DNA from: Bacteroidota bacterium
GTDB lineage: Bacteria; Bacteroidota; Ignavibacteria; UBA10030
DNA length: 64,000 nt
Direction: 5' to 3'
NCBI GenBank assembly: GCA_049523215.1
Contig: JBEKNC010000002.1
Span: 127,963-191,962, forward strand
Numbering within the stretch: the stretch's first letter is position 1; each line of letters starts with the position of its first letter. The notes under the pieces are model-generated. The model was not told where the DNA came from, did no database searches, and worked only from the letters and a program-made list of their open reading frames with translations. Both the position numbers and the translations under genes were made by a program. Below, one piece after another: positions 4,630 to 19,128 of this stretch.

Positions 4630-5046
4630 AGAAAAAAGGTATCGTAATTTCGAAGGAAAGGCAAGGTTATACCTCTGGAAGGAATAACAGAAAAATATCT
4701 GGCACCTCCCCGCGGGCAAACCATAGAAGGTGTATGATATTTATGGGGTCTTGCGATTGAATGGAATACTCATTACCATTTTCGCAGGTGCTTGCCCGCC
4801 GAATACTTAGATTGTCGCCTACCTGCCCGCCAGACAAGCGTCGGGCTGGCCACAGAAAGGAAGGATGGCGGGATTCTTCTGCGTTTTGATATTGATATGG
4901 TACCAGGCATTTCGCTGTATAGGATTCCTGATGTTTGGTTTCAGTTACAAAGAATAAAAACGCAGTACTGCATTTTTACAAATGTTATGTGAAACATCTC
5001 TCGCATATATGATGACCGAACGAATCAATACCGTTGTGTATGCACC

Positions 5047-5844
5047 ATGAGTACAAAACCTAACTTTTCTCTGCGTAAGTGGTATCTCGACTGCGTCGCC
5101 GACAATGGTGATACATTTATCGGATATTCCGGGGCACTGCATTGGAAAGCATTGACAATTAATTACTCCAGCACCATAAGCACGCGCGGGAATTCGGGAA
5201 CGAGAACGAAAACATCATTACGAGAAGTTCTTTCCCCGCAGATAAGCGATCGACGAATTGACTGGTCGTCGAAGGCGTTGAACCTCGTCGGGACATGGGC
5301 GCTGATGTCCGAACCGATTCAACGACAATTGTATGATTCACCCGAAGGAACAGTGACGTGGTCGTGTGTACATCCTCGATCGAAGGCTGACATCTCATTG
5401 GGACCGAAAGAGCATATTGCAGGTCTTGGGTACGCGGAACTGCTGGAGCTCACCGTCAAACCGTGGCAATTACCCATTGCGGAATTACGATGGGGGAGAT
5501 TTCTTTCCGAGAGTGATGTATTGGTATGGATCGAGTGGCGGGGCGCCGCACCACTTTCAATCGTATTCCTCAACGGGAAGCAAATTCGGAATGCCTCTAT
5601 CAGCGATGAGCAAGTTGCAATCGATGAAGATCGGACCGTGCTCACTCTCACTGAGAAAACAGAATTGCGTAAAGGCGTTCTCGTATCAACCGCACTCTCT
5701 GCGATTCCAGGAATTGCAGCAATTGTTCCCGCCCGCATGCTTCACACCTACGAATGCAAATGGAGAAGCAGAGGTGTTCTATCCACAAACGGCTCTTTGT
5801 GCAGCTCCGGCTGGGTCATTCACGAAATTGTAAGGTTCCCATGA
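5047..5844 (+). CDS. hypothetical protein (possibly a CrtC/AttH-like hydratase-fold protein; not verified)
   Basis: 265-aa ORF with no signal peptide. Its stop overlaps the start of the next gene as ATGA, which suggests translational coupling. I do not recognise the family with confidence. Confidence 0.45.
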   Translation: MSTKPNFSLRKWYLDCVADNGDTFIGYSGALHWKALTINYSSTISTRGNSGTRTKTSLREVLSPQISDRRIDWSSKALNLVGTWALMSEPIQRQLYDSPEGTVTWSCVHPRSKADISLGPKEHIAGLGYAELLELTVKPWQLPIAELRWGRFLSESDVLVWIEWRGAAPLSIVFLNGKQIRNASISDEQVAIDEDRTVLTLTEKTELRKGVLVSTALSAIPGIAAIVPARMLHTYECKWRSRGVLSTNGSLCSSGWVIHEIVRFP

Positions 5845-7778
5845 CTATGACGCGCACTGCCCAAGCGGCTGGAAAGTTTTTATACGGATTCATGTTCGTC
5901 GTCATAATTCCGCCCCTTCTTTTTGTGTGGGCAAGATCGACTGAAGACGTCGTACACGTACCGATTGCCGGCTCTTTTTCACTCGGTGTTGCCTTCACGT
6001 TGATCGGCTTCGCTACAATGATAGCTGGGATGGTAACACTTTACCGTCTTGGGGGCGGACTTCCGATGAATGCTTATCCCCCGCCCAGATATGTAACTCG
6101 TGGAATCTATAAGCTCTTACCACATCCCATCTACGTTGGATTTTCACTCGCGTGTATAGGCATATCGATGGCGTGTCGATCATCGAGTGGCCTCTGGCTC
6201 GTCTCACCGATTGTTGCACTCGGTTGCTTGGCTCTTGTTCAAGGATTTGAGAAGCATGATCTTATTAGGCGGTTTGGTTCACCGTTGCCCAGGACACTGA
6301 TCAGCCTTCCCTCGGACGAATCTAGAGCTCCTCTCCCTTGGGAGCGGTTATCCGTTTATCTACTTGTATTACTCCCATGGCTTGTATTGTATGAGTCCGT
6401 CGTAGCATTCGGGATTTCTCCAGATGCAATGATTGCGTATTTCCCTTTCGAAAAGAATTTACCAGTGTACGAATGGACAGAGATATTCTATGGAAGCACA
6501 TATCTTTTTGTTTTCCTAGTTCCTCTTGTCGCCACTTCTGCACGCGATCTTCGAGAATTTGCTATTGCCGGAATTACAGCAACAGTTCTGATCACACTCC
6601 TCTTCCTGGTTATTCCTATTGTCTCACCACCGAGAGAGTTTGTACCTCAGAGCATTTTCGGATCAATCCTGATATGGGAACGTGCGCTTGATGCCCCGGT
6701 TGCAGCTTTCCCATCGTTCCACGTTATCTGGGCTTTCCTTGCGGCTCGTCTCTATTCAAGGGCGATTCCTTCGTCGAAGATACTCTGGTGGTCTCTAGCT
6801 CTATTGATTTCCGTAAGCTGTATAACCACGGGTATGCATGCCATGATCGATGTTCTTGCGGGGGCGCTTGTTGTTCCGCTGGTTCTCCATATCAGTGCAC
6901 TGTGGGAAAAGCTACGATCTCTAGCAGAACGCATTGCAAACTCTTGGAAGGAGTGGCAAATCGGCCGGGTACGCATCATCAATCACGGAGTGTATGCGGC
7001 TGCTGGAACTTCGATTGGACTATTGATCATTGGTACTCTTCTCGGGCCCGGATCGGTGAGTCCCATGTTGATAATCGCATTTTCCTCTCTCATCGCGGCG
7101 GCATTGTGGGCTCAGTTCATTGAGGGCTCTCCAAGTTTGCTGCGCCCATACGGATTCTACGGGGGAGTTATCGGGGTCATTCTTGGTTCACTGATTGCTA
7201 AACTATTCGGCGGTAATATCTGGCAACTGCTTGGGGCGTACGCTGTTGCAGGGCCGATCATTCAGTCTGCTGGCAGGTTTCGGTGTTTCGTGCAAGGCTG
7301 CTGCCATGGACGCGAAGCGTCCAAGAATATCGGAATACGATATACGCATCCCCGAAGCCGGGTGTGTCGTCTTGCCAATCTGAACAACGTTCCTATTCAC
7401 CCTACACCGCTCTATTCGATACTTTGGAATGTATTTACAGTAATAATTCTCGCTCGGCTCTGGTCTCTTCACGGCTCCCTCACCCTTATCGCTGGGTTGT
7501 ATCTAATTTTAAATGGCCTTGGAAGATTTGTTGAGGAAGCATATCGTGGCGAACCGCAGACGCCTATTATTGGGCGACTGCGTTTATACCAATGGATTGC
7601 GGTTGCTAGTGTAGTCTCCGGTGCTGTTCTCACAACAGTGAGTACATCTTCGGCTATACCGAACTGGCAATTTAGCTGGATCGCCGTTGGTGCTGCTGCA
7701 GGATTCGGTTCCTTGACATGGTTTGCACTTGGAGTGGATTTTCCAAATTCTAACACGCGGTTTGCCAGACTTGTCTGA
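5841..7778 (+). CDS. polytopic membrane protein fusing three domains: ICMT/PEMT-like methyltransferase, PAP2 phosphatase-like, Lgt-like diacylglyceryl-transferase-like
   Basis: The N-terminus carries the isoprenylcysteine/phospholipid methyltransferase motif (YVTRGIYKLLPHPIYVGFSL). The middle carries PAP2-like PSFH…GMHAMIDVLAG motifs. The C-terminus carries the Lgt-like GRFRCFVQGCCHG…HPTPLYS motifs. The whole protein is multi-TM. I chose the start at the MTMTRT methionine, because the longer ORF-track start overlaps the upstream gene. Confidence 0.65.
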   Translation: MTMTRTAQAAGKFLYGFMFVVIIPPLLFVWARSTEDVVHVPIAGSFSLGVAFTLIGFATMIAGMVTLYRLGGGLPMNAYPPPRYVTRGIYKLLPHPIYVGFSLACIGISMACRSSSGLWLVSPIVALGCLALVQGFEKHDLIRRFGSPLPRTLISLPSDESRAPLPWERLSVYLLVLLPWLVLYESVVAFGISPDAMIAYFPFEKNLPVYEWTEIFYGSTYLFVFLVPLVATSARDLREFAIAGITATVLITLLFLVIPIVSPPREFVPQSIFGSILIWERALDAPVAAFPSFHVIWAFLAARLYSRAIPSSKILWWSLALLISVSCITTGMHAMIDVLAGALVVPLVLHISALWEKLRSLAERIANSWKEWQIGRVRIINHGVYAAAGTSIGLLIIGTLLGPGSVSPMLIIAFSSLIAAALWAQFIEGSPSLLRPYGFYGGVIGVILGSLIAKLFGGNIWQLLGAYAVAGPIIQSAGRFRCFVQGCCHGREASKNIGIRYTHPRSRVCRLANLNNVPIHPTPLYSILWNVFTVIILARLWSLHGSLTLIAGLYLILNGLGRFVEEAYRGEPQTPIIGRLRLYQWIAVASVVSGAVLTTVSTSSAIPNWQFSWIAVGAAAGFGSLTWFALGVDFPNSNTRFARLV

Positions 7779-7811
7779 AGAAGAATGTGTCTATGAGATT
7801 AAGAGATGCTT

Positions 7812-7901
7812 CACATAACAAACAGCCTTACGACGCTCGCTCAAGCCGTTTGGCACAGAAGAAATTGAATTGTTCATAGCGCCAAACGGCACTGCGTAAG
7901 G
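7812..7901 (+). repeat. degenerate attC-like inverted-repeat element, left boundary of a lone cassette
   Basis: The 7-mer CATAAC…GCTCAAGCC…GCCGTTTGGC / GCCAAACGGC…CTGCGTAAGGC shares blocks with the attC-like family at 17.9 kb (GCATAACC…GCTCAAGC…GCAGCTTAGCGCC…ATTAGGC). Confidence 0.4.
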
Positions 7902-7962
7902 CTCCTGACATTATACGCAAGCAGAAGCAGGATTGCCCCATTAATTTACATGATTTTTTTTA

Positions 7963-9123
7963 ATGATGACCCCACAAAATATTAAAAATATAGCAGACCA
8001 ATTTGAAACTCCTTTATATATTTATGATGCTGATAATATTAAAGAAAATCTTTCAGCTATTTTAAAATATCTATATTATAAAAAATCTAGGGTTTATTTT
8101 GCAGTTATGTGCAATAACCAACTTGAAATTTTGAAAATTATAAAAAATTTAGGTTTAGGAGCTCAAGTAAATTCAGAATATGAATTAGAAATAGTGAAAA
8201 AAGCGGGGTTTAATTCTTCAGATATTTCATTTAGTTCTACTGGAATTAGCACGGAGTTAATGAGAAAACTTATTGAAGCAAACATAGAGGTTAACTTAGA
8301 TTCTGCCGAGGAAGTAGAAAAATTTTGTGCACTTACTAGGAATAAAACCTTTGGTATAAGAGTTAAGATTCCCAAAATTATTAAGATTCATTCTGACGAA
8401 GCCACCAATATTTTTTTAAATTCAAATATGGGAATTAATGAGAAAGATTTTTACAAAATAAAAACAACCGCTTTTAGGACGGGGAATAGAATTGTAGGTG
8501 TTCATGGATATTTCGCTTCTAATATTCTTAATACAAAGCCTTTTATTGAATTTGGAGACTTTTTAGCAAAGAAAGCAATTTCGTTTCCAGACTTGAAATA
8601 TATCAACTTTGGTAGCGGTTTTGGAGTGAGATATTTAGAAAAGGATAAAGATTTTAATTTTAAAAAAGTTCTGAATTATTACTCAACTCTAAGCGATGGA
8701 TTATCCAAGAAATTTCAGAGAGAAATAATTATCAAAATTGAACCAGGAAGATCTATTTTGGCAAGTTCTGGCACTTTATTAGTAAGGGTTACAAATATAA
8801 AAAAACTGAACCCTAAAAAATCGGAAATTTCTGTTAATGCTGGTTTTGCAGAACTTGCAAGACCGAGAACTTACAACTCTTATCACAAAATTGAAAATTT
8901 AGAAAAAACAGGGAGAATAAAAAGAGTTTATGACATAAGAGGAAATACCGTTCTGCAAAATGATTTTTTGGGACGAAATAGAATATTAGAAGACGTTAAG
9001 GAGGACGATTTTCTTCTGATAAAAAATGTTGGGGCTTATGGAAGTGTAATGGCTTCTGGATTCCCTGGAAAAAGACTTCCCAAGCAAATATTAATAAATA
9101 AAAATCAGATTAAAGAAATATAG
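7963..9123 (+). CDS. Orn/DAP/Arg decarboxylase-family (fold-type III PLP) homolog whose Schiff-base lysine is replaced by Met; likely a pseudoenzyme or divergent enzyme
   Basis: The family signature [FY]-[PA]-x-K-[SACV]-[NHC]… is matched by FAVMCNNQLEILKIIKNLG, except that K is M. The Gly-rich NFGSGFGV and the EPGRS motifs are present. The gene is strongly AT-rich relative to its flanks. Confidence 0.7.
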   Translation: MMTPQNIKNIADQFETPLYIYDADNIKENLSAILKYLYYKKSRVYFAVMCNNQLEILKIIKNLGLGAQVNSEYELEIVKKAGFNSSDISFSSTGISTELMRKLIEANIEVNLDSAEEVEKFCALTRNKTFGIRVKIPKIIKIHSDEATNIFLNSNMGINEKDFYKIKTTAFRTGNRIVGVHGYFASNILNTKPFIEFGDFLAKKAISFPDLKYINFGSGFGVRYLEKDKDFNFKKVLNYYSTLSDGLSKKFQREIIIKIEPGRSILASSGTLLVRVTNIKKLNPKKSEISVNAGFAELARPRTYNSYHKIENLEKTGRIKRVYDIRGNTVLQNDFLGRNRILEDVKEDDFLLIKNVGAYGSVMASGFPGKRLPKQILINKNQIKEI

Positions 9124-9139
9124 GACAATGCACTGCCGA

Positions 9140-9275
9140 CTTCTGACTGCGTATGACACGGCGTATCTGGCTACACTTTAGTCCAATCGAGACACTAATC
9201 TAATCAAGGATTCAAGACGTTCCGCGAATATTTGCCTTCGCTTCGGCAAACATCAGATACGCCGAAACGTTATGG
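9140..9275 (+). repeat. degenerate attC-like element, right boundary of the decarboxylase-like cassette
   Basis: Imperfect inverted repeat CGGCGTATCTG … CAGATACGCCG. It ends …CGCCGAAACGTTATGGGC, which resembles …GCGCCGATCCGTTAGGC of the attC family. Confidence 0.35.
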
Positions 9276-9495
9276 GCAATTGCCCGTGAAAAACAATTGA
9301 AGAATAGGCATCGAGAATGGAAAATCAATTTGATTAAATCTGTTAATCCGGAGATGAATAATTTGAGCGATGAAGTGCTTGGATAATGAATAGATTCTCT
9401 GCCTGCGACAGGCCTGCCTAAGTTCTTTGAACGTCGGCGAGCAGGCGAACAATCGACCGCGCAAGAATCGCTTGTTCACTCTGATAGCATTAGTA

Positions 9496-10494
<999 letters not shown>

Positions 10495-10499
10495 TTAAC

Positions 10500-11759
10500 T
10501 TACTCGTTGGCAGCGGGTGAATGGAAATGCGCAAATAACTTGTCTGTAAAGAGCACCGCCTCAGCGCTAAATGGATCGACTTCATTCGCAAGATAGAGTG
10601 TATCGAGATATTGAGCGACTTCTTCCCATATACCAAAGAGACTGATTTCTGTCATTGCCCCCTGGAACGCAGGCTCATCATTGGTAAAGAGATTCTTCAC
10701 TAATAAACTGTGCTCTTCATCAGGAAAAAGGTCAAGAATTTCTTTTCGCTTTATACTCGGCATCGATACAAGATATTTTTCGTCATCCTCACCAAAGACG
10801 ACCGACGGCGTCTTCGGTGGCACAGGATTTTCTGTCGATGGCGCAACCGTGACAGTCTCAGGTTCCTGTACGCTGTAACCATCAGCACCACCGGCAGCCT
10901 GATGGTTCTCCTGCTGCACATCGTTTGGAATGACAACAGGCAAAGTAATCGGACGTGCGGTTGCATCTTCATTCCCCACTCGTACGATTTCTATAATGTC
11001 TGCCAAGCGATCCGCTGTAATTTGGATGACCCGATTGTGATCGCGTTCGAATTCGAGCCGTACATGAATATCAGTAAGGTGCTTATCATCAAAGAAAACA
11101 ATTGCCGCATTGATCGGAAGCGTTTGTTGTTCAAATTCTACTTGCGGCACCATCTTCCCGGACTCGACAAAATCGAACAACGCACGCGTTATTTGGGCAA
11201 GTTCAAAGCTGGAATGCTGCGCTACTACTTCATGGTCGATCTTTTCAATCAGCGACTTGAACTCTTCATAGGTCACTTCTACCAACCCATGGTCAACGAT
11301 AAACCGCTTGATCAGCTCGGGAAAGTAGGTATAATCAATACAATACTTCAGCCGCTTCTCAATAGTCGAAGAGGCAACTCGACGCTGGTCACCGACGATA
11401 AAATTCAAGAGCGTCCACTGCGGACGACAGAGATAGTTGAATTGGAAGTGCACCGACTCGTCGAGAAGCGATTCAAATTCTTGCAGACTGAAATGGTAAT
11501 TTTGAACAAGTAATAAATCGATCTGCTCTTCAAGACTTTTTATTTCAGCCAACGAGTACGAAAATTTTTTAGAACGATATTCCGATCCCCGTTCCTGTGC
11601 AAGTGTTTTTTCCACCTCCGCCTTGAAGTACGCCTTGATCGCAGGATGAATATTTGCCATAAGGATTTTCTTTAAGAACACATCATCCTCCTCGCCTATC
11701 GTTTTGACACGAACCGCATGGATGATGGATTCTATTTCTGCTTCGAAAATGTAGCCCAT
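10500..11759 (-). CDS. hypothetical protein
   Basis: 419-aa ORF with consistent coding character and a Pro-rich C-terminal segment. I recognise no family. Confidence 0.55.
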   Translation of the reverse strand: MGYIFEAEIESIIHAVRVKTIGEEDDVFLKKILMANIHPAIKAYFKAEVEKTLAQERGSEYRSKKFSYSLAEIKSLEEQIDLLLVQNYHFSLQEFESLLDESVHFQFNYLCRPQWTLLNFIVGDQRRVASSTIEKRLKYCIDYTYFPELIKRFIVDHGLVEVTYEEFKSLIEKIDHEVVAQHSSFELAQITRALFDFVESGKMVPQVEFEQQTLPINAAIVFFDDKHLTDIHVRLEFERDHNRVIQITADRLADIIEIVRVGNEDATARPITLPVVIPNDVQQENHQAAGGADGYSVQEPETVTVAPSTENPVPPKTPSVVFGEDDEKYLVSMPSIKRKEILDLFPDEEHSLLVKNLFTNDEPAFQGAMTEISLFGIWEEVAQYLDTLYLANEVDPFSAEAVLFTDKLFAHFHSPAANE

Positions 11760-11775
11760 TGTTAAATTAAGCCAT

Positions 11776-11840
11776 TGTGTGATTGAGCGATTGAGTCAAT
11801 TCGTGATTTAGCGATTAAGTGATTTAGTGATTAAAGAAAT
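11776..11840. repeat. tandem 8-bp repeat array (GATTNAGY units)
   Basis: GATTGAGC GATTGAGT CAATTCGT GATTTAGC GATTAAGT GATTTAGT GATTAAAG. 8-bp periodicity. Confidence 0.8.
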
Positions 11841-11845
11841 AGTTT

Positions 11846-12205
11846 TCATCTCCTGCCGCGTGCGGTTTGATTGGACGCTGAAAAAATAGCAATCAATTCA
11901 TTCGCTTCTTTGAGTAATTCATTCGTCTTTTCTGGTGAAAGTATATTGAGATCTGTGACCATTTCAAGCCAAAACACAGTTTCATCAGCTTCTTCTACAA
12001 CAATACCAATTTTCGCTATGAACTCTGCTTTCGAACGGGCTCGGCAAACAGCCCGATAATTTGCAGCAACTGATGTTGCAGAACGCATCAATTGTCTTCC
12101 AATAATTCTGGCTTCTTCATTCTTTGGGAATGTTCGAACAAGTCTTACAATTTGAATTGCAAATTGCTTTGTTCGATCTCTTAATATTTCCGGCTGACTT
12201 TTCAT
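11846..12205 (-). CDS. four-helix-bundle protein (TIGR02436-like; the family historically annotated 23S rRNA-intervening-sequence protein)
   Basis: 119 aa carrying the characteristic …RQLMRSATSVAANYRAV…SKAEFIAKIGIVVEEADETVFWLEM… pattern. Confidence 0.8.
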   Translation of the reverse strand: MKSQPEILRDRTKQFAIQIVRLVRTFPKNEEARIIGRQLMRSATSVAANYRAVCRARSKAEFIAKIGIVVEEADETVFWLEMVTDLNILSPEKTNELLKEANELIAIFSASNQTARGRR

Positions 12206-12214
12206 AACGAATCA

Positions 12215-12300
12215 ATCACTCATTCTCACAATCACCCAATCACTTAATCACCCAATCACTTAATCATCCAATCTCTCAATCACATATTCACCCAATCTCC
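12215..12300. repeat. tandem 8-bp repeat array, inverted relative to 11776-11840
   Basis: AATCACTC ATTCTCAC AATCACCC AATCACTT AATCACCC AATCACTT AATCATCC AATCTCTC AATCACAT… is the reverse complement of GTGATTRRGT units. Confidence 0.8.
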
Positions 12301-12301
12301 C

Positions 12302-15300
12302 TCATTCCTTTTTCCCAAGAACTGTCTTTACGCGATCAATTTCTTTCTGCGCTGCTGTCTTAAACTGCGAATCGGTGTCTTTTCGGCTGATGATTTGCTT
12401 GTACATCGTCATTGCCTGGTCATATTTCGACATCTTCTCGTACGATTGTCCAGCCATATAATATGCCGTTGAAATCCAATCCATTTTACCTCGTTTCGTA
12501 ACAAGATACGGAACTTTTAAAAATTCAAGAATTGCTTGTTGAAATTCCCCTTTATAAAAGTATGCCTCGCCAATATAGTACCGGAGTTCTGCTTCAAGAT
12601 CAATATTTCCTGCTTCTATTAAATCCTGCAAATGGAGAATTGACTGATCGTAGTATCCTAACTTCTGATACAACACGCCGATATCAATTTTCTTATCGAT
12701 GAGATCAGGATCGTTCGGGTAACGATCGATATACTTGCGTGTCAACTCCAGCGCACCATCATACAATTCCATTTCCTTGTATACCATAATCAAATTGCTC
12801 ATCGCTAACGGAACGAGACTGGGAGTGCGCTGTTCATTATCGAGAATGATACGATATTGTTTCGAAGCGGCATCCCATTGCTCAAGACTGTAATACGCGT
12901 TCCCCAAGCTCAAGTGTACACGCGGCAAAATCGGATCGTTAGGATAATATCTCAAAAGAGAATCATACATACGCACAGCAAGCGGCAATTTTTGATCCAA
13001 CTCATATACGCGAGCTGTCCAGAACATCGTTTCAGGAATAATAGGTGCTTTCGGATATGAATGAACAACCTGGTCAAACCGCTCTCGCGCTTTCGCAATG
13101 TCTTCTTTTCGCAGCTGGTATTTTCCCCGTTCGAATTCAAACTCTGCTTCATAATTATAAGTATGAGAATGTTCTTTTATAAAATCCGCCGCCCGTTTAT
13201 CTGCTTCTTTCACATTATCGAGCCGGAAGTAGGAGACAACGATTCGCGATTGTATGTATCGTTTTGCAGTGTCATTCTTTGTTTGCGAGAGTGCTTCGCT
13301 ATATCTTTTGACGGCATCGGCATATTGTTCATTCTGGAACAACATTTCCGCTGTCTCCAATGCCACGAACAAAGATTGCCCGCCTGATTTCCCTGCAATG
13401 CGGCTTACTTCCTGCAGATACTTCGCAGCGAGTTCGATAGAGTTTTCTGACTTTGCTATCGAGGCGAGCGCATAATATGCTTGTCCGGCTCTCGCCGTTG
13501 TTTGATCTCTTGTCACATATTCTGCATACCATTTCTTTGCTGCAGAAAAATCCATGAGTTTTTCGCTGCATACACCTAATTTAAAAATAATGGAACCTTC
13601 AATCTCCGGATCCACAGTTACAAAAAAGAAATCGGTTCGCAATCTTTCTAGACTATGCATATACCATTCATGTGCATTCTTAAAATCATTGGCAAAGAAA
13701 TACGCGTCAGCTTTGTACAGATCGAGACGCGATCTCAATGGATGATAGAAATACCGGGTCTCGAGAAGATCAAAATAGCCGAACGCTTTCGTCACTCGAC
13801 CGCTGTCTGCTGCAGTTTTGGCGAGATATGCAGCGGCGGCGGCACTTTTCACATGATTTGGATTTTTAGCAAGAAAATTATCAAGCACTTGAATTGCTGA
13901 ATCTTTCTCCATCATTCCATCGAGCGCAATGCCAAGCTGGTACTGCGCAGAGGGAGCTGTCTCGCGATCTGAATACTTTTCCAACAGAAGTTTATATGTG
14001 AGAACAGCGCTTTCATAATTTTTTGCTGTCAAATAAGAATCACCAAGCAAGAGAAGCGCTACATCTCTCCCGCGCGCACCGGAAGATTTCGACAAGAACT
14101 CCGTTCCAAGTGTCCGCACTTCTTCCGGCTTCTCTGCCAATTGCAGGCGGAGCGTGAATGCCGCGACAACCGCTTGGTCGGTAAGCTCGCCTGCCGGATA
14201 CAACACTGTAAGAGAATCGTATAAAACAATCGCCCTTGAAAGAAATTCTTTTTTCTTTGCGGTTTTTTCTCCTTCTTTCGATGCAAGCAGTTCAAACGAC
14301 TGCGCTTGTTTGAACCATGCCATCGGACGCAGGGTTTCTTCCAGATCGACTGTGAGAGCGTATGCAAACTGATCGGCGGCAAGCTGGTAATCTTTTATAT
14401 CGGAGAAATAGATTTCAGCAAGACGATAGGCAAGATTCCCTTTCGATTTCTGTGCGATGACATCTCCAACTAAAAGCGCAAGCTTCTGCGTGCTTGCATC
14501 CTTGCTGCGCAGATCAAAAGCCTTGATGAGACGAATCTGTTTTTGTGCTTCAGGAACAAACTCGCTGCTCGGATAGCGGCGCTGGAGATTTTCGAATGCT
14601 GCAATCGCTTCATCCATATTGCCGGCTTTCTTCCACGCTTCACCAAGCTTCATCGTCGCATCGTCAACCAATTCACTCGATGGAAAATGTTCAAGAAGCC
14701 ATTCGCAAAAATCGATCGCAGTCTTCGTATCGCCAACTTCGTCGTTGGCTACTGTAGCTCCTTCTAGTAAAAGTCTGGGCAGGTTGGCATCCGATGGATA
14801 CTGTTGACGGAATAGATTCGTTAACCGCACTGCTTCCGTGAAATTTTTTGTTGTAACAGCGCCCTTCATTGCACCGACAATAATTGCCCGACGATCCGCA
14901 TTGCCGACGCTATCGGTCAGAGCACGCGAATACAACTGCGCCGCTTTTACTGGATCGCCTGCGCGCTCGGCAGCAACGCCGGCTTTATAGAGCGCTTCCC
15001 CATTGCGAAGCCCGCGGATTTTTCCAGCTTTCTCGAACAACTCAAGCGCCCGTGCATTTAACTGCATGCGATTGTTCGCTTCCGCCATTTCCATATATGC
15101 ATCCTGCCGAAGCTGCTTGGGAGCTTTCAAACTGTCATCCGCTGCCGATTTCCAGGCTGCTAACGCTTCTTCTGTTTTACCGGCTGCATTTTTCAGAACA
15201 CCGAGTGTAAAGAGTGCATCGTAGTAGCTCGATGTCGATTTGAAATTCGTTGTAACTTCGGACACTGCCGTTTCTGCTTCAGTAATTTTTCCCATACCAA

Positions 15301-15952
15301 TAAGAGATTGTCCGTACAATACGAGCGCGCGGGCTTTCAACTGCGACTCTTTGGTCGCATCGATCACACGCTTGCTCTCCTGGCGGGCCTGTTCAAATTG
15401 TCCTGCGGATATTAATATCTCGGCAAGTTTATTTCTTGCCGGCAGCACTTCATCGGTCGTGTATTCCTGCGTGAGTGTCCGTAAAACACGAAGTGTATTT
15501 TCTGTATCCTTCAGCCGACCGTAGTACTCGGCAGCTTTGAGAAGTGCAACCGGGGCAAATTTACTGCTCGGGTGAAACGTTTTCACACGTTCAAACGCCA
15601 TTGCCGCTTCGCGGTCATTCTTCATCGCGGCATATTCCTCTGCAACGTTCATCCACGCTTCCGGCGCTTTCATATTATCGGTATACGCCAGAGCGAAATT
15701 CTGGAATGTATAGCGGGCGTCGTCGTGCTTGCCGAGCTTGGATTGTGTTAAGCCGAGATAAAAACGCGCTTCAATTCCCTGCGCACTGCTCGGGTAGAGA
15801 TTGATGAATGTGCGGAACTGTTCCAGCGCAAGATCGTACATCTTGTCGTTATAGAGATTGACGGCAAGCTTAAAATCGCCATTCTCTTTGGCATCCTGCG
15901 CAAAGGCGATGCAAGAGAACAAAAATAAAATGGAGAGAAGTTTGACTTTCAT
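12302..15952 (-). CDS. large secreted tetratricopeptide-repeat (TPR) protein
   Basis: 1216 aa with an N-terminal signal peptide (MKVKLLSILFLFSCIAFAQ) and dozens of TPR-like A/Y/L-rich helical repeats. Confidence 0.85.
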   Translation of the reverse strand: MKVKLLSILFLFSCIAFAQDAKENGDFKLAVNLYNDKMYDLALEQFRTFINLYPSSAQGIEARFYLGLTQSKLGKHDDARYTFQNFALAYTDNMKAPEAWMNVAEEYAAMKNDREAAMAFERVKTFHPSSKFAPVALLKAAEYYGRLKDTENTLRVLRTLTQEYTTDEVLPARNKLAEILISAGQFEQARQESKRVIDATKESQLKARALVLYGQSLIGMGKITEAETAVSEVTTNFKSTSSYYDALFTLGVLKNAAGKTEEALAAWKSAADDSLKAPKQLRQDAYMEMAEANNRMQLNARALELFEKAGKIRGLRNGEALYKAGVAAERAGDPVKAAQLYSRALTDSVGNADRRAIIVGAMKGAVTTKNFTEAVRLTNLFRQQYPSDANLPRLLLEGATVANDEVGDTKTAIDFCEWLLEHFPSSELVDDATMKLGEAWKKAGNMDEAIAAFENLQRRYPSSEFVPEAQKQIRLIKAFDLRSKDASTQKLALLVGDVIAQKSKGNLAYRLAEIYFSDIKDYQLAADQFAYALTVDLEETLRPMAWFKQAQSFELLASKEGEKTAKKKEFLSRAIVLYDSLTVLYPAGELTDQAVVAAFTLRLQLAEKPEEVRTLGTEFLSKSSGARGRDVALLLLGDSYLTAKNYESAVLTYKLLLEKYSDRETAPSAQYQLGIALDGMMEKDSAIQVLDNFLAKNPNHVKSAAAAAYLAKTAADSGRVTKAFGYFDLLETRYFYHPLRSRLDLYKADAYFFANDFKNAHEWYMHSLERLRTDFFFVTVDPEIEGSIIFKLGVCSEKLMDFSAAKKWYAEYVTRDQTTARAGQAYYALASIAKSENSIELAAKYLQEVSRIAGKSGGQSLFVALETAEMLFQNEQYADAVKRYSEALSQTKNDTAKRYIQSRIVVSYFRLDNVKEADKRAADFIKEHSHTYNYEAEFEFERGKYQLRKEDIAKARERFDQVVHSYPKAPIIPETMFWTARVYELDQKLPLAVRMYDSLLRYYPNDPILPRVHLSLGNAYYSLEQWDAASKQYRIILDNEQRTPSLVPLAMSNLIMVYKEMELYDGALELTRKYIDRYPNDPDLIDKKIDIGVLYQKLGYYDQSILHLQDLIEAGNIDLEAELRYYIGEAYFYKGEFQQAILEFLKVPYLVTKRGKMDWISTAYYMAGQSYEKMSKYDQAMTMYKQIISRKDTDSQFKTAAQKEIDRVKTVLGKKE

Positions 15953-15989
15953 AATTGCAAAATGTAGCCAAATATGAGAGGATTAGCAA

Positions 15990-16075
15990 GAAAGTGAAGA
16001 TAGGAGATTAAGAGATTTGGTGATTGGGTGATTAAGTGATTGGGTGATTGAATGATTGAGAGATGTTGAGAGATA
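15990..16075. repeat. tandem 8-bp repeat array (GTGATTRRG units), third copy
   Basis: GATTAAGA GATTTGGT GATTGGGT GATTAAGT GATTGGGT GATTGAAT GATTGAGA GATGTTGA GAGATAGG. It has the same orientation as 11776-11840 and is inverted relative to 12215-12300. Confidence 0.8.
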
Positions 16076-16853
16076 GGGAAAAAAAATTGAGAGAAAGTGC
16101 TGGAAGAAAAAAAAGAAGGCTTGATTAGCTATGACCCCATCAGTCCCCAGAGGTCGTTTTGCGCGTTCGCATATAAAAATAGACACACGCTTTGTGTGTG
16201 TTTGTAATGGGCCTCCGGCTGCCCTGATAGAAAAGATTCCATGAGGAATCAACGTCATTCCGGCGTGATTCTAGTCGGAATCCAGGGTCTAGATAACCTA
16301 CAACCAATATTTGTTATTTGAGTTAACGCCGCTTTCTTTTGGCGAAAAGAAAGCGACAGAAAGAAACGCTTGTGAAATCGAAATGTGTTTTCTCAAGGTT
16401 GAACTAAGATTGGGGATATGATAAACTCATTGTTAGAAATATAATGTACGGAAGGATTGGAATACACCTTGTCTTGACCCGTCTTTCTTCTATCGATTTC
16501 GCGGCTTAGAGATAAGAATATGAAAAACACGGCGGATAGAGAACTCCTGACTCCACTTGGCCTCCACCTTCTTGACAATGCACTCAAGAAAAACCATATT
16601 GTTCCTGTTCCCGGATTACCAAAGCGCTTAATAGTTATTACCTGTGTATTTTTATGACGTATGCTGAAGAAATAACATTTGAGATGAAGAGAAATATCAT
16701 TCGACTTTTCATGCGTAATAGTCGCAAAAAGCCGACTCAGTCTCACGAAGTTTCCAAAGGAATCCCTTTGGGAGATGCCTTTGGCAGACCTAATCACAGG
16801 TTAGGCGCATAAAAACGTTACACTATTAAATGTAGATGAATATGGAATGAAAT

Positions 16854-17939
16854 ATGAGACTGTACTCAACACCGCTGTCAGCTTCAAGATTGGAAATCAC
16901 GAAGCTTGCAATTATTGAAACAGTATTATCGCTTTCTATCTATTCATTCATTGTCCTGTATTTTGGAAGTCTTAAATACCTTGTAGTTATTATCGTTTTA
17001 GCTCCTCTTACACTATTCCGGACTGATAGTTCTTCAGAATGGGCCATTGATAAATTTAAACTCATTCTTGAAAATCTAAATAAATGGGTTTTTAATTCTT
17101 GGAATGGGAAAGCAATAATTTATCGAGTTCTGCTTGCATTTATTCTTTGGCCTTTATTTGGTGTAAGTCTGCGGGTTGTTTCGACTATTTATTTTTTTAT
17201 TAAGAATCCAATATCTGTAATTGTTGAAATGCCTCGGAACTGGATGCGACAGTGCATTTGTACAGATTTTATGCATCCACCAGAAATATTGCCAATGGAA
17301 TGTGTTAAATCTAGTATAGATAAAAATGTACATTCATTTTATACTTGGAAAAAAGGCCTTATTGATGCGCGTTATTCTGTAAAGTTTGGACTCTTAATAT
17401 TTACTTTACCTTTTTGGATTATTGGATGGATACCTTCTTTATTCTATCGTATTTCATTCAAAGCGACATCTATTGTATATCTACCCTTTATCTGGGTTGC
17501 AAATCTCACCATGCAAAATCCATTACCAGTCAAAAAACGACTTGAGAGATTTACTCAGGGAGAACTGGAAAAGGTTCGTCGTGGCTACTCTTGGATTATT
17601 ATAGTCATGTTACTTTCAAAGATTGGTTTTATATTAGGGTATATTGATATTAATTTCATAACCCAAAAATATTTAAATGAGAGAATTGTAAATACTATTA
17701 TTGTTCCAAATAGTTGGGCATCTTGGCAGATAACATTAGGAATAGACGCATTGTTAACATTCTTTCTACTCTTCTTTACTGATTCAGCACTTGCAAGACT
17801 TGATCATAAACCTTTTTTTAAAGAAGAAACGATATTAAATACTGTTTCATTTATCTCATTTATTAGAGCTGCAATCAGTATTTTTACTATTTCAATATTC
17901 TTTTTTTATGCTCTCAATTTGTTTTTTTTAAAGCAATGA
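16854..17939 (+). CDS. hypothetical polytopic membrane protein (cassette cargo)
   Basis: 361 aa with at least 8 hydrophobic helices. Very AT-rich. Followed 6 bp later by an attC-like element. Confidence 0.6.
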   Translation: MRLYSTPLSASRLEITKLAIIETVLSLSIYSFIVLYFGSLKYLVVIIVLAPLTLFRTDSSSEWAIDKFKLILENLNKWVFNSWNGKAIIYRVLLAFILWPLFGVSLRVVSTIYFFIKNPISVIVEMPRNWMRQCICTDFMHPPEILPMECVKSSIDKNVHSFYTWKKGLIDARYSVKFGLLIFTLPFWIIGWIPSLFYRISFKATSIVYLPFIWVANLTMQNPLPVKKRLERFTQGELEKVRRGYSWIIIVMLLSKIGFILGYIDINFITQKYLNERIVNTIIVPNSWASWQITLGIDALLTFFLLFFTDSALARLDHKPFFKEETILNTVSFISFIRAAISIFTISIFFFYALNLFFLKQ

Positions 17940-17944
17940 AATGT

Positions 17945-18103
17945 GCGCATAACCCGCGGCTCAAGCTGACCGGATGAGCGTTAGTGCATTTTACATTGCG
18001 CGTAGAGGTTTAGTACAGAATTGAAAGTGAAGTGAATGAACTTGGTTCGTTCCGTGCAATTTGAAAGTTCACATTGTCGCAGCTTAGCGCCGGTCCATTA
18101 GGC
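17945..18103 (+). repeat. attC-like site (long variant of the family, reverse-complement orientation relative to array II)
   Basis: GCGCATAACCCGCGGCTCAAGCTGACC … GAACTTGGTTCGTT … GCAATTTGAAAGTT … CGCAGCTTAGCGCCGGTCCATTAGGC. Near-identical to the reverse complement of the 55-61 kb elements. Confidence 0.7.
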
Positions 18104-18132
18104 GGTTGCCAAAATTAATAAGGATTACACAG

Positions 18133-19032
18133 ATGTCAAATAATATTGCGTCTCTCTCTGAATCGACCTTCAGATCAAATATTCGCCACACTGGTTTGCC
18201 AAGCTGTAATATTGATATTAGAACGTTGAAAAAGTTATTTGGTAAATTGAACGAGTGTTGTCGCGAGGCAGCCACAATTGAATTGTCAAAATTACGCCAA
18301 GGCACAATGACTACAGAGCAATACGAAAAATTCAAGAATGATGTAGCCGAATCATATAAAATTAATGTAGAGATACTTGGGAAAAAAGGGGAATACTTTT
18401 CATCAACCTCAGAATCCTTGCTTGATGAAAATGTTTTACCAAGTCAATTAGTAAGACTTACTTTCAATAGTGAATTCCTTTTTAAGACAGCATTCAATGC
18501 CGTTCCAATGAACAGCGTAAAAATCATTATTGATTTTAATAAAGCCACAGTACTTGATTTTTCCTCAAACCCTTCACACCCGACATCCAATGATAGTGTT
18601 ATTGACGTTCTTGGCCAGACAGAATCTTGGGTGGATGGAGTTTATAAGGCTGTGAATGATATTCTTAAAGAATGTAGTACGCATCGAACTTGGTTGCACA
18701 GGAGAGGAATATATGATTTATTTCTATGGTTATTTATTATTCCTCTTTCCTTCTGGAATCTTCATAAATTAGTCTTAGGGTTCCCCACTTTCTTTAATGC
18801 AATTTCCGGTGTAATTCAAGTATTTGTCTCAATCTATTTTCTACTTCTCATTATTTTACTTTATAGAGCATTCTTCAGTTATGCTCGCTGGGTTTTTCCT
18901 TATATCGAACTTAGTTCTACTTCAAAGACTACATCGACCAGGCATAGAATATTTTTTACCGGATTAACACTAACATTGACTTATGGATTGTTGAAAGATT
19001 TAATAAAGAGAATTATTGAAATTATATTTTAA
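18133..19032 (+). CDS. hypothetical protein with C-terminal transmembrane helices (cassette cargo)
   Basis: The ORF-track reading frame opens with TTG at 18106. I used the first ATG (MSNNIASL…), 30 nt after the attC core. The C-terminus has two hydrophobic helices. AT-rich. Confidence 0.55.
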   Translation: MSNNIASLSESTFRSNIRHTGLPSCNIDIRTLKKLFGKLNECCREAATIELSKLRQGTMTTEQYEKFKNDVAESYKINVEILGKKGEYFSSTSESLLDENVLPSQLVRLTFNSEFLFKTAFNAVPMNSVKIIIDFNKATVLDFSSNPSHPTSNDSVIDVLGQTESWVDGVYKAVNDILKECSTHRTWLHRRGIYDLFLWLFIIPLSFWNLHKLVLGFPTFFNAISGVIQVFVSIYFLLLIILLYRAFFSYARWVFPYIELSSTSKTTSTRHRIFFTGLTLTLTYGLLKDLIKRIIEIIF

Positions 19033-19044
19033 TGTATAGCAACT

Positions 19045-19128
19045 GCCTAACTAGGCGCTCCCGCCCAACAAGACAGCGGGGCAGGCAAGCTCGGCTTGTC
19101 CAGAAGGCGAAGCGGCCATCCGTTAGGC
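19045..19128 (+). repeat. attC-like site (short variant)
   Basis: GCCTAAC TAG GCGCTCCCGCC…GGCGGG…CAAGCTCGGCTTGT…GCGGCCATCC GTTAGGC. The termini are perfect 7-bp inverted repeats. Confidence 0.7.

What the first reader, a model, noticed from the sequence alone, without database searches (positions are those of the whole stretch)
11776..16075. Three arrays of an 8-bp tandem repeat (GTGATTRRG units) in inverted arrangement, bracketing a four-helix-bundle gene and a 1216-aa TPR gene
Seen in sequence: 11776-11840, 12215-12300 and 15990-16075 each contain 8-11 tandem 8-bp units (GATTGAGT / GATTAAGT / GATTGGGT…). The first and third arrays are in one orientation. The second is reverse-complemented. 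As a result the four-helix-bundle gene (11846-12205) and the TPR gene (12302-15952) are each flanked by inverted repeat arrays. The arrays are not CRISPR, because the units have no spacers. Inference: possibly arrays of binding sites for a regulator, or a recombination or inversion substrate. The four-helix-bundle protein family has no established function.
Basis: seen in the sequence. Interest (0 to 1): 0.55.

Follow-up and report, generated by a model that had tools for sequence, protein, structure and literature searches.

The report
Guest gene inside a tandem-repeat hairpin
The repeat arrays are the two inverted ends of a small inserted cassette carrying a four-helix-bundle gene wedged between two operon genes, and this gene family turns out to sit inside such 7-8-base tandem-repeat hairpins across many bacterial phyla, a link I could not find described.

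Summary
The three 8-bp arrays are real and non-random. Arrays 1 and 2 (11776-11840, 12213-12301) are the inverted arms of a ~540-bp cassette. Its only gene is a PF05635/TIGR02436 four-helix-bundle protein (S23p/IVP, Avd-like). The cassette fills the whole gap between a TPR gene and the next gene of a TPR-X-obg operon.

At this junction relatives show every state: empty (3 or 12 nt spacer), full cassette, and decayed remnants. It is therefore an insertion. The gene is under purifying selection (dN/dS 0.04-0.16).

The pattern is general. In genome loci from five lineages, 72 of 85 homologues have significant inverted arms, mostly of period 8. In 14 of 15 distant homologues (cyanobacteria, Chloroflexota, Treponema, Cytophagales) the arms are 7-nt STRR-like arrays. 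Arms end a median 2-3 nt from the host stop and start codons. ORF-less hairpins of the same repeats are common.

Array 3 is an orphan arm upstream of the TPR promoter-like block and is absent in several relatives. The "TPR flanked by inverted arrays" picture is therefore probably incidental.

Best model, partly inferred: an IVS-like guest gene. Its arms fold it out of the operon transcript, and its own pentamer may bind them.

The parts
11760..12301 (-). Whole inserted cassette: 5' arm, 4HB gene and 3' arm. It occupies the entire gap between the TPR stop codon and the start codon of the 419-aa gene.
   Evidence: The orthologous junction is 3 nt (L220) or 12 nt (L219) in relatives without the cassette.
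12213..12301 (-). Array 2, the 5' (upstream) arm in gene sense. About 11 units of RGTGATTR. It starts directly after the TPR stop codon.
   Evidence: TRF period 8, 11.1 copies. Pairs with array 1 in the RNA fold. Relatives have only 4-8 units here.
11846..12205 (-). Four-helix-bundle gene, 119 aa (S23p / 23S_rRNA_IVP / TIGR02436; Avd-like fold).
   Evidence: PF05635 E=3.8e-19, TIGR02436 E=6e-27. PDB 2RLD E=1.5e-16. AF2 pLDDT 96; Foldseek hits 2RLD, 2GSC, then Avd 8UB7/4DWL. dN/dS 0.04-0.16.
11776..11840 (-). Array 1, the 3' (downstream) arm in gene sense. About 8 units of YAATCRCT. It ends 17 nt before the start codon of the next gene.
   Evidence: TRF. Inverted repeat with array 2: 55 nt at 78%.
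15990..16075 (.). Array 3, an orphan arm of the same repeat type. It lies between a terminator-like hairpin of the upstream unit and the TPR promoter-like block. It is not part of the cassette.
   Evidence: TRF. Present in L216 and L081/82; absent in L085, L087 and L217-219. Terminator-like sites at 16183-16250. No complementary arm and no 4HB remnant nearby.
15953..15995 (-). Conserved promoter-like block TTCTTGCTAATCC..TATTTGGCTACATTTTGCA immediately before the TPR ATG.
   Evidence: Conserved in all relatives, with or without array 3. Promoter function is inferred.
12302..15952 (-). Host gene upstream of the cassette: 1216-aa secreted multi-TPR (YbgF/BamD-like repeats) protein.
   Evidence: The same gene is present in all relatives.
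10500..11759 (-). Host gene downstream of the cassette: conserved 419-aa protein with no known domain, followed by obg (9496-10485).
   Evidence: Synteny TPR-X-obg holds in L081-L089 and L216-L220.

Best explanation
Arrays 1 and 2 are the terminal inverted-repeat arms of a ~540-bp guest cassette. Its only gene encodes a four-helix-bundle protein of the S23p/IVP family (PF05635, Avd-like). The cassette was inserted, co-directionally, into the 3-12-nt spacer between the stop codon of a TPR gene and the start codon of the next gene of a TPR-X-obg operon in an Ignavibacteria-like bacterium.

It belongs to a very widespread class. Genes of this family sit in the loop of a hairpin whose stems are tandem 8-nt units (AT(T/C)G core) in Acidobacteriota, Bacteroidota/Ignavibacteria, Chlorobi, Nitrospirota and Binatia. 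The units are 7 nt (STRR-like) in cyanobacteria, Chloroflexota and Treponema. ORF-less hairpins of the same repeats are common, and at this locus they arise by deletion of the ORF.

Proposed working (inferred): the gene has no promoter of its own and rides on operon transcription. In the transcript the two arms pair into a 35-90-bp duplex that folds the insert out. This brings the host stop and start codons back to within a few nucleotides of each other. The duplex probably offers a double-strand RNase (RNase III) site, as in the 23S rRNA intervening sequences that carry the same gene family. The encoded pentamer may bind this repeat duplex, by analogy with Avd binding an RNA stem-loop.

Array 3 is an orphan arm outside the TPR transcript.
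For: SHOWN
- Arrays are real and inverted.
- The gene is PF05635/TIGR02436 with an Avd-like fold.
- The orthologous junction occurs empty (L219, L220), full (window, L001, L081-89, L217) and decayed. L216 keeps only the 4HB C-terminus plus the 3' arm. L218 is a 116-nt degenerate hairpin.
- dN/dS is 0.04-0.16.
- 72 of 85 homologous cassettes have inverted arms above the 99th percentile of shuffles. The direct-orientation control median equals the shuffle median.
- Period 8 is the best period in most flanks.
- Each locus's arms match each other better than arms from other loci: 21.6 vs 14.3.
- 14 of 15 distant plasmid-borne homologues have period-7 arrays on both sides.
- The upstream neighbour is on the same strand in 68 of 80 cases, and both neighbours in 46 of 67.
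- Arms end a median 2 nt after the host stop codon and 3 nt before the host start codon (n=52).
- Hairpin polarity is [F loop R] 29 times against 4, and loop sizes are bimodal: <=120 or 300-520 nt.
- In acidobacterial nuo operons nearly every intercistronic gap holds such a hairpin, with or without the ORF.
- 4HB identity tracks the arm unit type (p=0.003). It is uncorrelated with the flanking nuoD/nuoE genes, which correlate with each other (r=0.80).
- The RNA fold of the cassette pairs the arms, z=-6.0.

FROM THE LITERATURE
- S23p ORFs lie in 23S IVS elements bounded by a terminal inverted-repeat stem that RNase III cuts (PMC4990558).
- Cyanobacterial STRR 7-bp repeat hairpins lie between operon genes, with transcript stability or translational coupling suggested as roles (PMC2670836).
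- The Avd pentamer grips an 11-bp RNA stem-loop with all five protomers (bioRxiv 10.1101/2023.10.23.563531).
Against: - Arm mismatches show no excess of sense-strand G.U wobbles: 109 against 89 antisense-type, with 265 transversions. Nothing therefore specifically indicates selection on the RNA rather than on the DNA palindrome.
- Pairing alone does not explain the tandem periodicity, the conserved in-phase AT(T/C)G core, or the fixed [F loop R] polarity.
- Small distances to the host stop and start codons would also follow simply from insertion into very short spacers.
- No transcript, cleavage or binding data exist.
- How the cassette moves is unknown. There is no nuclease or transposase and no clear target duplication.
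- The Coxiella IVS paper found no evidence that its S23p is made in vivo.
Confidence: 0.55

Rival explanations
1. The arrays act at the DNA or protein level. They are arrays of binding sites for the 4HB pentamer itself or for a host factor. One protomer per 7-8-nt unit would bridge the two arms for autoregulation, or for excision/insertion or recombination of the cassette. RNA folding would then be irrelevant.
For: - There is a conserved in-phase AT(T/C)G core and strict periodicity beyond what a stem needs.
- Typical arms have 4-5 units and the protein family forms pentamers (2RLD has 5 chains; Xcc0516 is a homopentamer).
- Unit length differs between protein clades, 8 versus 7 nt.
- 4HB identity tracks arm unit type independently of the host genes.
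- There is no sense-strand wobble bias.
- Avd contacts nucleic acid with all five protomers.
Against: - Unit sequences differ wildly between closely related hosts, for example GTCGGAG, GATTGCA, TAATTCG and AATCCCC within Nostocales. That would demand very fast co-evolution of specificity in a highly conserved small protein.
- The window arms have 8-11 units, not 5.
- 80 loci with perfect arrays contain no 4HB gene, although one could act in trans.
- Co-orientation with host operons is not predicted by a purely DNA-level role.
Confidence: 0.2
2. The tandem-repeat hairpins are an independent, host-serving or selfish class of intergenic repeats, like REP/BIME or cyanobacterial STRR. They would control operon mRNA stability or decay, and 4HB genes would merely be passengers that lodge in their loops.
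For: - Perfect arrays are abundant without any 4HB gene, often as short hairpins.
- ORF-less hairpins occupy other gaps of the same nuo operons.
- STRR hairpins are described in cyanobacterial operons without mention of any gene.
Against: - At the TPR junction the empty state has no hairpin at all (3-12 nt).
- An ORF-less form there (L216) is demonstrably a deletion derivative that still carries the 4HB C-terminus.
- ORF and arm type are co-inherited.
- Nearly every member of a very large protein family has the arms. That is hard to explain by chance lodging.
Confidence: 0.17
3. The arrays are slippage-prone simple-sequence repeats that give phase or length variation of expression of the 4HB, TPR or downstream gene.
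For: Unit number differs between species (4-5, 8 and 11 units in the 5' arm). A 16-bp block is amplified in arrays 2 and 3.
Against: - Six independent metagenome assemblies carrying the identical 4HB protein have identical arms.
- Arms in orthologous nuo cassettes keep unit-specific features, such as the ATCGGG third unit, across genera.
- The arrays are neither in coding sequence nor between promoter hexamers.
Confidence: 0.04
4. Arrays 2 and 3 are recombination sites that invert the 3.7-kb TPR segment.
For: They share 69 nt at 80% complementarity, including a perfect stretch of about 31 nt.
Against: - The gene order and orientation TPR-4HB-X-obg are identical in all 15 related loci fetched.
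- Array 3 is missing in several of them.
- No recombinase gene lies nearby.
- The polarity is the non-canonical [R..F].
Confidence: 0.03

Closest known systems
23S rRNA intervening sequences (IVS) that carry an S23p ORF (Leptospira, Coxiella burnetii)
   Same: Same protein family in the loop (PF05635). An insert of about 0.4-0.5 kb bounded by complementary termini that form a long stem. Embedded in, and transcribed as part of, a highly expressed host transcript. Regarded as a selfish element (PMC4990558).
   Different: The element here lies between protein-coding cistrons, not in 23S rRNA helix 45. The arms here are 55-90 nt of tandem 8-nt units, whereas Coxiella has a unique 28-bp stem. RNase III excision is shown for the IVS and only inferred here. 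The ORF here is under clear purifying selection, whereas the Coxiella ORF is decaying.
Cyanobacterial STRR (short tandemly repeated repetitive) heptamer hairpins
   Same: Tandem short units in inverted arrays forming hairpins in intercistronic gaps of operons. Function is unknown, with translational coupling or transcript stability suggested (PMC2670836). The distant 4HB genes I examined in Nostoc, Planktothrix, Dolichospermum and others are flanked by exactly such heptamer arrays.
   Different: The unit here is 8 nt with an ATTG core. The host is an Ignavibacteria-like bacterium (also Acidobacteriota and others), not a cyanobacterium. The STRR papers I could reach did not mention a resident gene.
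REPIN-RAYT systems (REP doublets and their associated transposase gene)
   Same: A single small gene flanked by inverted copies of a repeat. The same repeat also exists as many ORF-less hairpin doublets in intergenic regions. This comparison rests on my own knowledge, not on a tool result.
   Different: The protein here is a 4-helix bundle with no HUH/Y1 nuclease motifs. The repeats are tandem arrays rather than single 20-35-nt palindromes. Mobilisation has not been demonstrated.
Avd, the accessory protein of diversity-generating retroelements
   Same: Same fold (Foldseek TM about 0.75-0.8 to 4DWL/8UB7) and weak profile similarity (phrog_3206 E=0.0026). Avd binds a structured RNA stem-loop with all five protomers.
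   Different: None of the 15 predicted proteins I scanned between 75 and 27500 is a reverse transcriptase, and I saw no template/variable repeat pair. The rest of the window was not scanned. Sequence identity to Avd is about 9%.

Membership tests
PF05635 / TIGR02436 four-helix-bundle (S23p, 23S_rRNA_IVP) proteins | Sequence matches the family profile above the curated cut-off | tested here: met
   PF05635 69.3 bits against a cut-off of 33.8. TIGR02436 94 bits against a cut-off of 24.
PF05635 / TIGR02436 four-helix-bundle (S23p, 23S_rRNA_IVP) proteins | Up-down four-helix bundle of about 120 aa, like 2RLD and 2GSC | tested here: met
   AF2 model has four helices, pLDDT 96. Foldseek TM 0.85 to 2RLD and 0.81 to 2GSC.
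PF05635 / TIGR02436 four-helix-bundle (S23p, 23S_rRNA_IVP) proteins | Homopentameric barrel | not tested
   Only a monomer was modelled. 2RLD has five chains in the entry.
23S rRNA intervening sequence (IVS) | Inserted within a 23S rRNA gene (helix 9, 25 or 45) | tested here: not met
   No rRNA in the window; the only Rfam hit is one tRNA. The insert lies between two protein genes.
23S rRNA intervening sequence (IVS) | Complementary termini forming a stem that encloses the insert | tested here: met
   Arms of 55 nt at 78% complementarity. The MFE fold pairs them, z=-6.0.
23S rRNA intervening sequence (IVS) | Excised from the precursor by RNase III | not testable with these tools
Cyanobacterial STRR repeats | Tandem heptanucleotide units | tested here: not met
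   The unit here is 8 nt. It is 7 nt in the cyanobacterial relatives of the gene.
Cyanobacterial STRR repeats | Intergenic or intercistronic location with hairpin potential from inverted arrays | tested here: met
REPIN-RAYT | The associated gene is an IS200/IS605-like HUH (Y1) transposase | tested here: not met
   The only family match is PF05635; there is no transposase domain.
REPIN-RAYT | Gene flanked by inverted repeat copies that also occur as dispersed ORF-less hairpins | tested here: met
IS / MITE-type transposable element | Terminal inverted repeats plus target-site duplication and presence/absence polymorphism | tested here: inconclusive
   TIRs and empty/full/decayed sites are shown. 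No target duplication is recognisable, and there is no transposase.
CRISPR array | Repeats of 23-50 nt separated by unique spacers | tested here: not met
   The units are head-to-tail 8-mers with no spacers.
Diversity-generating retroelement | Reverse transcriptase and a TR/VR repeat pair next to the Avd-like gene | tested here: not met
   The 15 predicted proteins scanned between 75 and 27500 (three of them without any Pfam match) include no reverse transcriptase. There are no long direct repeats around the gene. The remainder of the window was not scanned.

The most novel reading that the evidence does not exclude
The four-helix-bundle gene plus its tandem-repeat arms is a self-propagating intercistronic element of a new kind. 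An Avd-like pentamer recognises the 7-8-nt repeat arms of its own cassette, as RNA or DNA, and promotes its maintenance or spread into tight stop/start junctions of operons. The abundant ORF-less STRR-type hairpins of cyanobacteria, Acidobacteriota and others would be its non-autonomous or decayed derivatives. The ORF-bearing 23S rRNA intervening sequences would be the same element landed in rRNA.
Probability: 0.3. Interest if true: 0.85.

Novelty: new variant of a known kind. Interest (0 to 1): 0.65.

Why it matters
Three poorly understood things may be one phenomenon.
- The PF05635/TIGR02436 family has no known function outside DGR Avd. It is large: more than 10,000 50%-identity clusters at E<=1e-3.
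- The ORF-bearing 23S rRNA intervening sequences.
- The short tandemly repeated (STRR) hairpins of cyanobacterial operons.

If the gene and the repeat hairpin are one element, each becomes experimentally approachable. One can test pentamer binding to repeat arms, RNase III processing, and effects on translational coupling.

It would also explain why these genes keep appearing as 'associated' with CRISPR-cas, DISARM, restriction-modification and nuo operons. They insert between cistrons of any operon. That is a warning for guilt-by-association function prediction.

Tried and rejected
- **Wobble test for RNA-level selection.** I compared sense with antisense G.U-type mismatches between the arms. 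There was no bias (109 vs 89), so the RNA model gains nothing from it.
- **Known RNA families.** Rfam gave nothing around the arrays at E<=1 and only one tRNA in the whole window.
- **Promoter and terminator scan.** Promoter-like sites were not above chance. Only terminator-like hairpins upstream of array 3 were useful.
- **A second 4HB gene or pseudogene next to array 3.** tblastn over the window finds none.
- **4HB genes next to perfect GTGATTRR arrays in metagenomes.** None in 80 loci. The association is therefore one-directional.
- **Intragenomic homogenisation of paralogous cassettes.** Rejected. Same-genome copies at two nuo sites are only 63-65% identical, like copies from different genomes.
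- **Defence-system membership.** No PADLOC hit.
- **Literature.** Ten full-text searches returned no paper linking PF05635/S23p genes with flanking tandem repeats (one search was a rejected query). Ralph & McClelland 1993 and Elhai 2008 are not held, so prior description cannot be excluded.
- **Strict repeat detectors.** These undercount arms because units vary at 3-4 of 8 positions: 44 of 84 upstream flanks at >=22/32 lag-8 matches, against 7 of 314 random segments. The complementarity test is the more reliable figure.

Full report
**1.

Tandem Repeats Finder reports period-8 arrays at 11766-11832, 12213-12301 and about 16006-16064, with degenerate units out to 15990-16075 (sequence). The motif GATTRRGYGATT occurs nine times in the window, all inside these arrays, against 0.11 expected. 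Arrays 1 and 3 read GTGATTRR on the + strand, and array 2 is the reverse complement. Arrays 1/2 form a 55-nt, 78% inverted repeat. Arrays 2/3 form a 69-nt, 80% inverted repeat.

**2. Local anatomy**

All genes in this region are on the minus strand, in this order:
- a 1216-aa secreted multi-TPR protein (15952..12302);
- a 119-aa PF05635/TIGR02436 four-helix-bundle (4HB) protein (12205..11846);
- a conserved 419-aa protein without known domains (11759..10500);
- obg (10485..9496).

The 542 bp between the TPR stop codon and the 419-aa start codon consist of nothing but array 2, the 4HB gene and array 1. Folded as RNA, the minus-strand sequence pairs the two arrays into one long stem enclosing the ORF (z = -6.0 against shuffles).

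**3. The cassette is an insertion**

I fetched the orthologous junction from relatives. The relatives fall into three states:
- **Empty.** Two distant relatives have a 12-nt spacer (L219) or a 3-nt spacer (L220) between the TPR stop and the next start.
- **Full.** L001, L081-L089 and L217 carry the same cassette at the same place, with 4-8 units in the 5' arm instead of 11.
- **Decayed.** L216 is the closest relative (neighbour protein 93% identical). It has a deletion running from the second unit of the 5' arm to about codon 103 of the gene. That leaves 135 nt which still encode ...ELLAIFSASNQTARGRR* followed by the 3' arm. L218 keeps only a degenerate 116-nt ORF-less hairpin.

The 4HB ORF is under purifying selection, with dN/dS of 0.04-0.16. 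This is comparable to the neighbouring host gene. Six independent assemblies with the identical 4HB protein have identical arms, which argues against slippage-driven phase variation.

**4. Array 3 is something else**

Array 3 lies upstream of a block of about 40 nt (TTCTTGCTAATCC...TATTTGGCTACATTTTGCA). That block is conserved before the TPR ATG in every relative, and I take it to be the promoter (inference). Array 3 lies downstream of terminator-like hairpins belonging to the preceding unit.

It is present in L216 and L081/82. It is absent in L085 (same 4HB protein as L081), L087 and L217-L219. No partner arm and no 4HB remnant lie beside it.

In all the loci examined the canonical arrangement is [ATTG-type arm - loop - CAAT-type arm], found 29 times against 4. 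The four exceptions are simply a gene lying between two hairpins. Arrays 1/2 have the canonical polarity and arrays 2/3 do not. The 'TPR gene bracketed by inverted arrays' picture is therefore most likely incidental. It remains unexplained why arrays 2 and 3 share the amplified 16-bp block GTGATTGGGTGATTAA.

**5. The pattern is general**

*Close homologues (57-89% identity).* A scan of one genome per species returned at least 592 homologues, and I analysed the best 80 loci. They come from Acidobacteriota, Bacteroidota, Chlorobiaceae, Nitrospirota and Binatia.
- Period 8 is the best period in most flanks.
- Stringent lag-8 periodicity is present in 44 of 84 upstream flanks and 38 of 84 downstream flanks, against 7 of 314 random segments.
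- 72 of 85 cassettes have inverted arms above the 99th percentile of shuffles. The direct-orientation control is at shuffle level.
- Unit sequences differ between loci (GTAATTGG, GTCATTGA, GCGATTGG, TTCATTGG...). They keep an in-phase AT(T/C)G core.
- The two arms of a locus match each other better than they match arms of other loci (21.6 vs 14.3).

*Distant homologues (30-57% identity).* These are plasmid-borne copies in Planktothrix, Nostoc, Dolichospermum, Gloeocapsa, Euhalothece, Pseudanabaena, Anabaena, Chlorohelix, Treponema, Bernardetia and Chondrinema. In 14 of 15 cases they are flanked by tandem arrays of 7-nt units of unrelated sequence. Examples are AAGTCGG/ACTTCCG, TAATTCG/AATTACG, GATTGGA/CAATCTC and ACTGGTC. 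These are cyanobacterial STRR-type repeats.

The architecture is therefore conserved, while the unit sequence and length are not.

**6. Habit**

The cassettes lie between genes of operons of any function. Examples are nuoD|nuoE and nuoF|nuoG, DISARM drmD|MmeI, helicase|methylase, RND adaptor|permease, and positions next to cas1. This matches an older report of 23S_rRNA_IVP genes between cmr3 and cmr2 (PMC3936711).
- The upstream neighbour is co-directional in 68 of 80 cases, and both neighbours in 46 of 67, even with crude ORF calling.
- The arms reach a median 2 nt from the host stop codon and 3 nt from the host start codon (n=52).
- In acidobacterial nuo operons nearly every intercistronic gap holds such a hairpin. 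Some carry the 4HB ORF in the loop (300-520 nt) and some have a short loop (<=120 nt).

**7. The reverse association is weak**

None of the 80 loci fetched (490 kb) contains a 4HB gene of this subfamily. The arrays there are intergenic, in many taxa, and are often short [F-loop-R] hairpins. So the rule is '4HB gene implies arms', not 'arms imply 4HB gene'.

**8. ORF and arms travel together, apart from their flanks**

I compared 14 acidobacterial cassettes at the nuoD|nuoE junction.
- Pairwise DNA identities of nuoD and nuoE correlate strongly (Mantel r = 0.80, p = 0.0005).
- The 4HB gene between them correlates with neither (r = 0.00 and 0.07).
- 4HB identity does track the arm unit type (AATT versus GAT/CAT; difference 0.046, p = 0.003). 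The host genes do not.

At the TPR locus, dS between the window and L217 is 0.5 for the 4HB gene but 1.5 for its neighbour. Copies at two nuo sites in the same genome are not homogenised (63-65% identity).

This suggests cassette turnover or replacement at fixed sites. The gene is short, so noise is a caveat.

**9. The protein**

- The AF2 model gives a confident four-helix bundle (pLDDT 96).
- The best structural matches are 2RLD and 2GSC (S23p family, pentameric), then Avd of the Bordetella phage DGR (8UB7, 4DWL; TM about 0.75-0.8).
- There is a weak profile hit to 'Avd protein of DGR' (E = 0.0026).
- None of the 15 predicted proteins I scanned between 75 and 27500 is a reverse transcriptase.
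- Avd's pentamer grips an 11-bp RNA stem-loop through flipped-out bases contacted by all five protomers (bioRxiv 10.1101/2023.10.23.563531).
- The family is large: 10,175 50%-identity cluster representatives at E<=1e-3.

**10. Interpretation**

*Shown.* This is an inserted, vertically maintained and occasionally decaying cassette: a 4HB gene between inverted tandem-repeat arms. It is placed co-directionally in a tight stop/start junction and belongs to a class spanning at least seven phyla.

*Inferred.* It works like the ORF-bearing 23S rRNA intervening sequences, which have the same gene family and a terminal stem cut by RNase III (PMC4990558). Under this model:
- the gene rides on host transcription;
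- the arms fold the insert out of the transcript, re-approximating the host stop and start codons;
- the arm duplex provides a dsRNA processing site;
- the pentamer may bind the arm duplex.

*Against the RNA-specific part.* There is no sense-strand wobble bias. The periodicity, the core motif and the fixed polarity also remain unexplained.

*Rivals.* These are DNA- or protein-level binding arrays, independent STRR/REP-like repeats with the gene as a passenger, phase variation, and inversion of the TPR segment. They are ranked in the Rival explanations section.

**11. Novelty**

The components are known: the protein family, the IVS, and STRR hairpins. My ten full-text searches found no paper linking the gene family with flanking tandem-repeat arms or describing 8-nt STRR-like hairpins outside cyanobacteria. 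Subscription-only literature could not be searched. I therefore rate it a new variant of a known kind.

Noticed in passing
window 4720-9495: A + strand block lies between obg and the HAMP-PAS histidine kinase. It holds a 265-aa unknown ORF, a 674-aa PEMT/PAP2/LGT fusion, and a 386-aa Orn/DAP-type decarboxylase at 29% GC (genome about 43%). In relatives L216-L218 and L220 obg and the kinase are adjacent, so this looks like an acquired insertion.
   Followed up: partly
window 16100-19100: Low-GC (33-39%) region with two membrane-protein-like ORFs (16854-17939, 18106-19032) that have no Pfam match. The DNA upstream of the TPR promoter block differs in every relative: a TIR-domain gene in L216, and a response regulator in L217-L219.
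   Followed up: partly
window 16255-16290; L085 about 60-170: A different palindromic repeat (GTCATTCCGGCG...GGAATCC in the window; GTCATTGCGAGTGAGCGAAG...GAAGCAATC in L085) occupies the variable spacer upstream of the TPR gene.
   Followed up: no
L057, L033, L018, L028, L036 (acidobacterial nuo operons): Almost every intercistronic gap from nuoA to nuoG carries an octamer-array hairpin, with two of the gaps holding 4HB genes. The third unit of the nuoD|nuoE arms is ATCGGG in nearly all genera.
   Followed up: partly
L025 2870-3660; L215 1145-1495; L211 1190-2020: Some cassettes have very long or nested arrays, up to about 180-270 nt. Examples are 38 copies of a 7-mer in Treponema and two stacked hairpins around the Planktothrix gene. 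Arm length is therefore highly variable between lineages.
   Followed up: no
L217 4576-4600: In this relative the codon aligned with the 4HB start codon is GTA (ATG in the window, GTG in L001). The gene is called six codons shorter, which suggests possible start-codon loss or use of an alternative start.
   Followed up: no
L096 7000-7700: A metagenome contig has GGTGATTG arrays and other tandem arrays (GCGATTGGCGATT, GGTGCGATGGTGCG) on both sides of a small cas2-like ORF. Tandem-repeat arms may therefore flank other small genes too.
   Followed up: no
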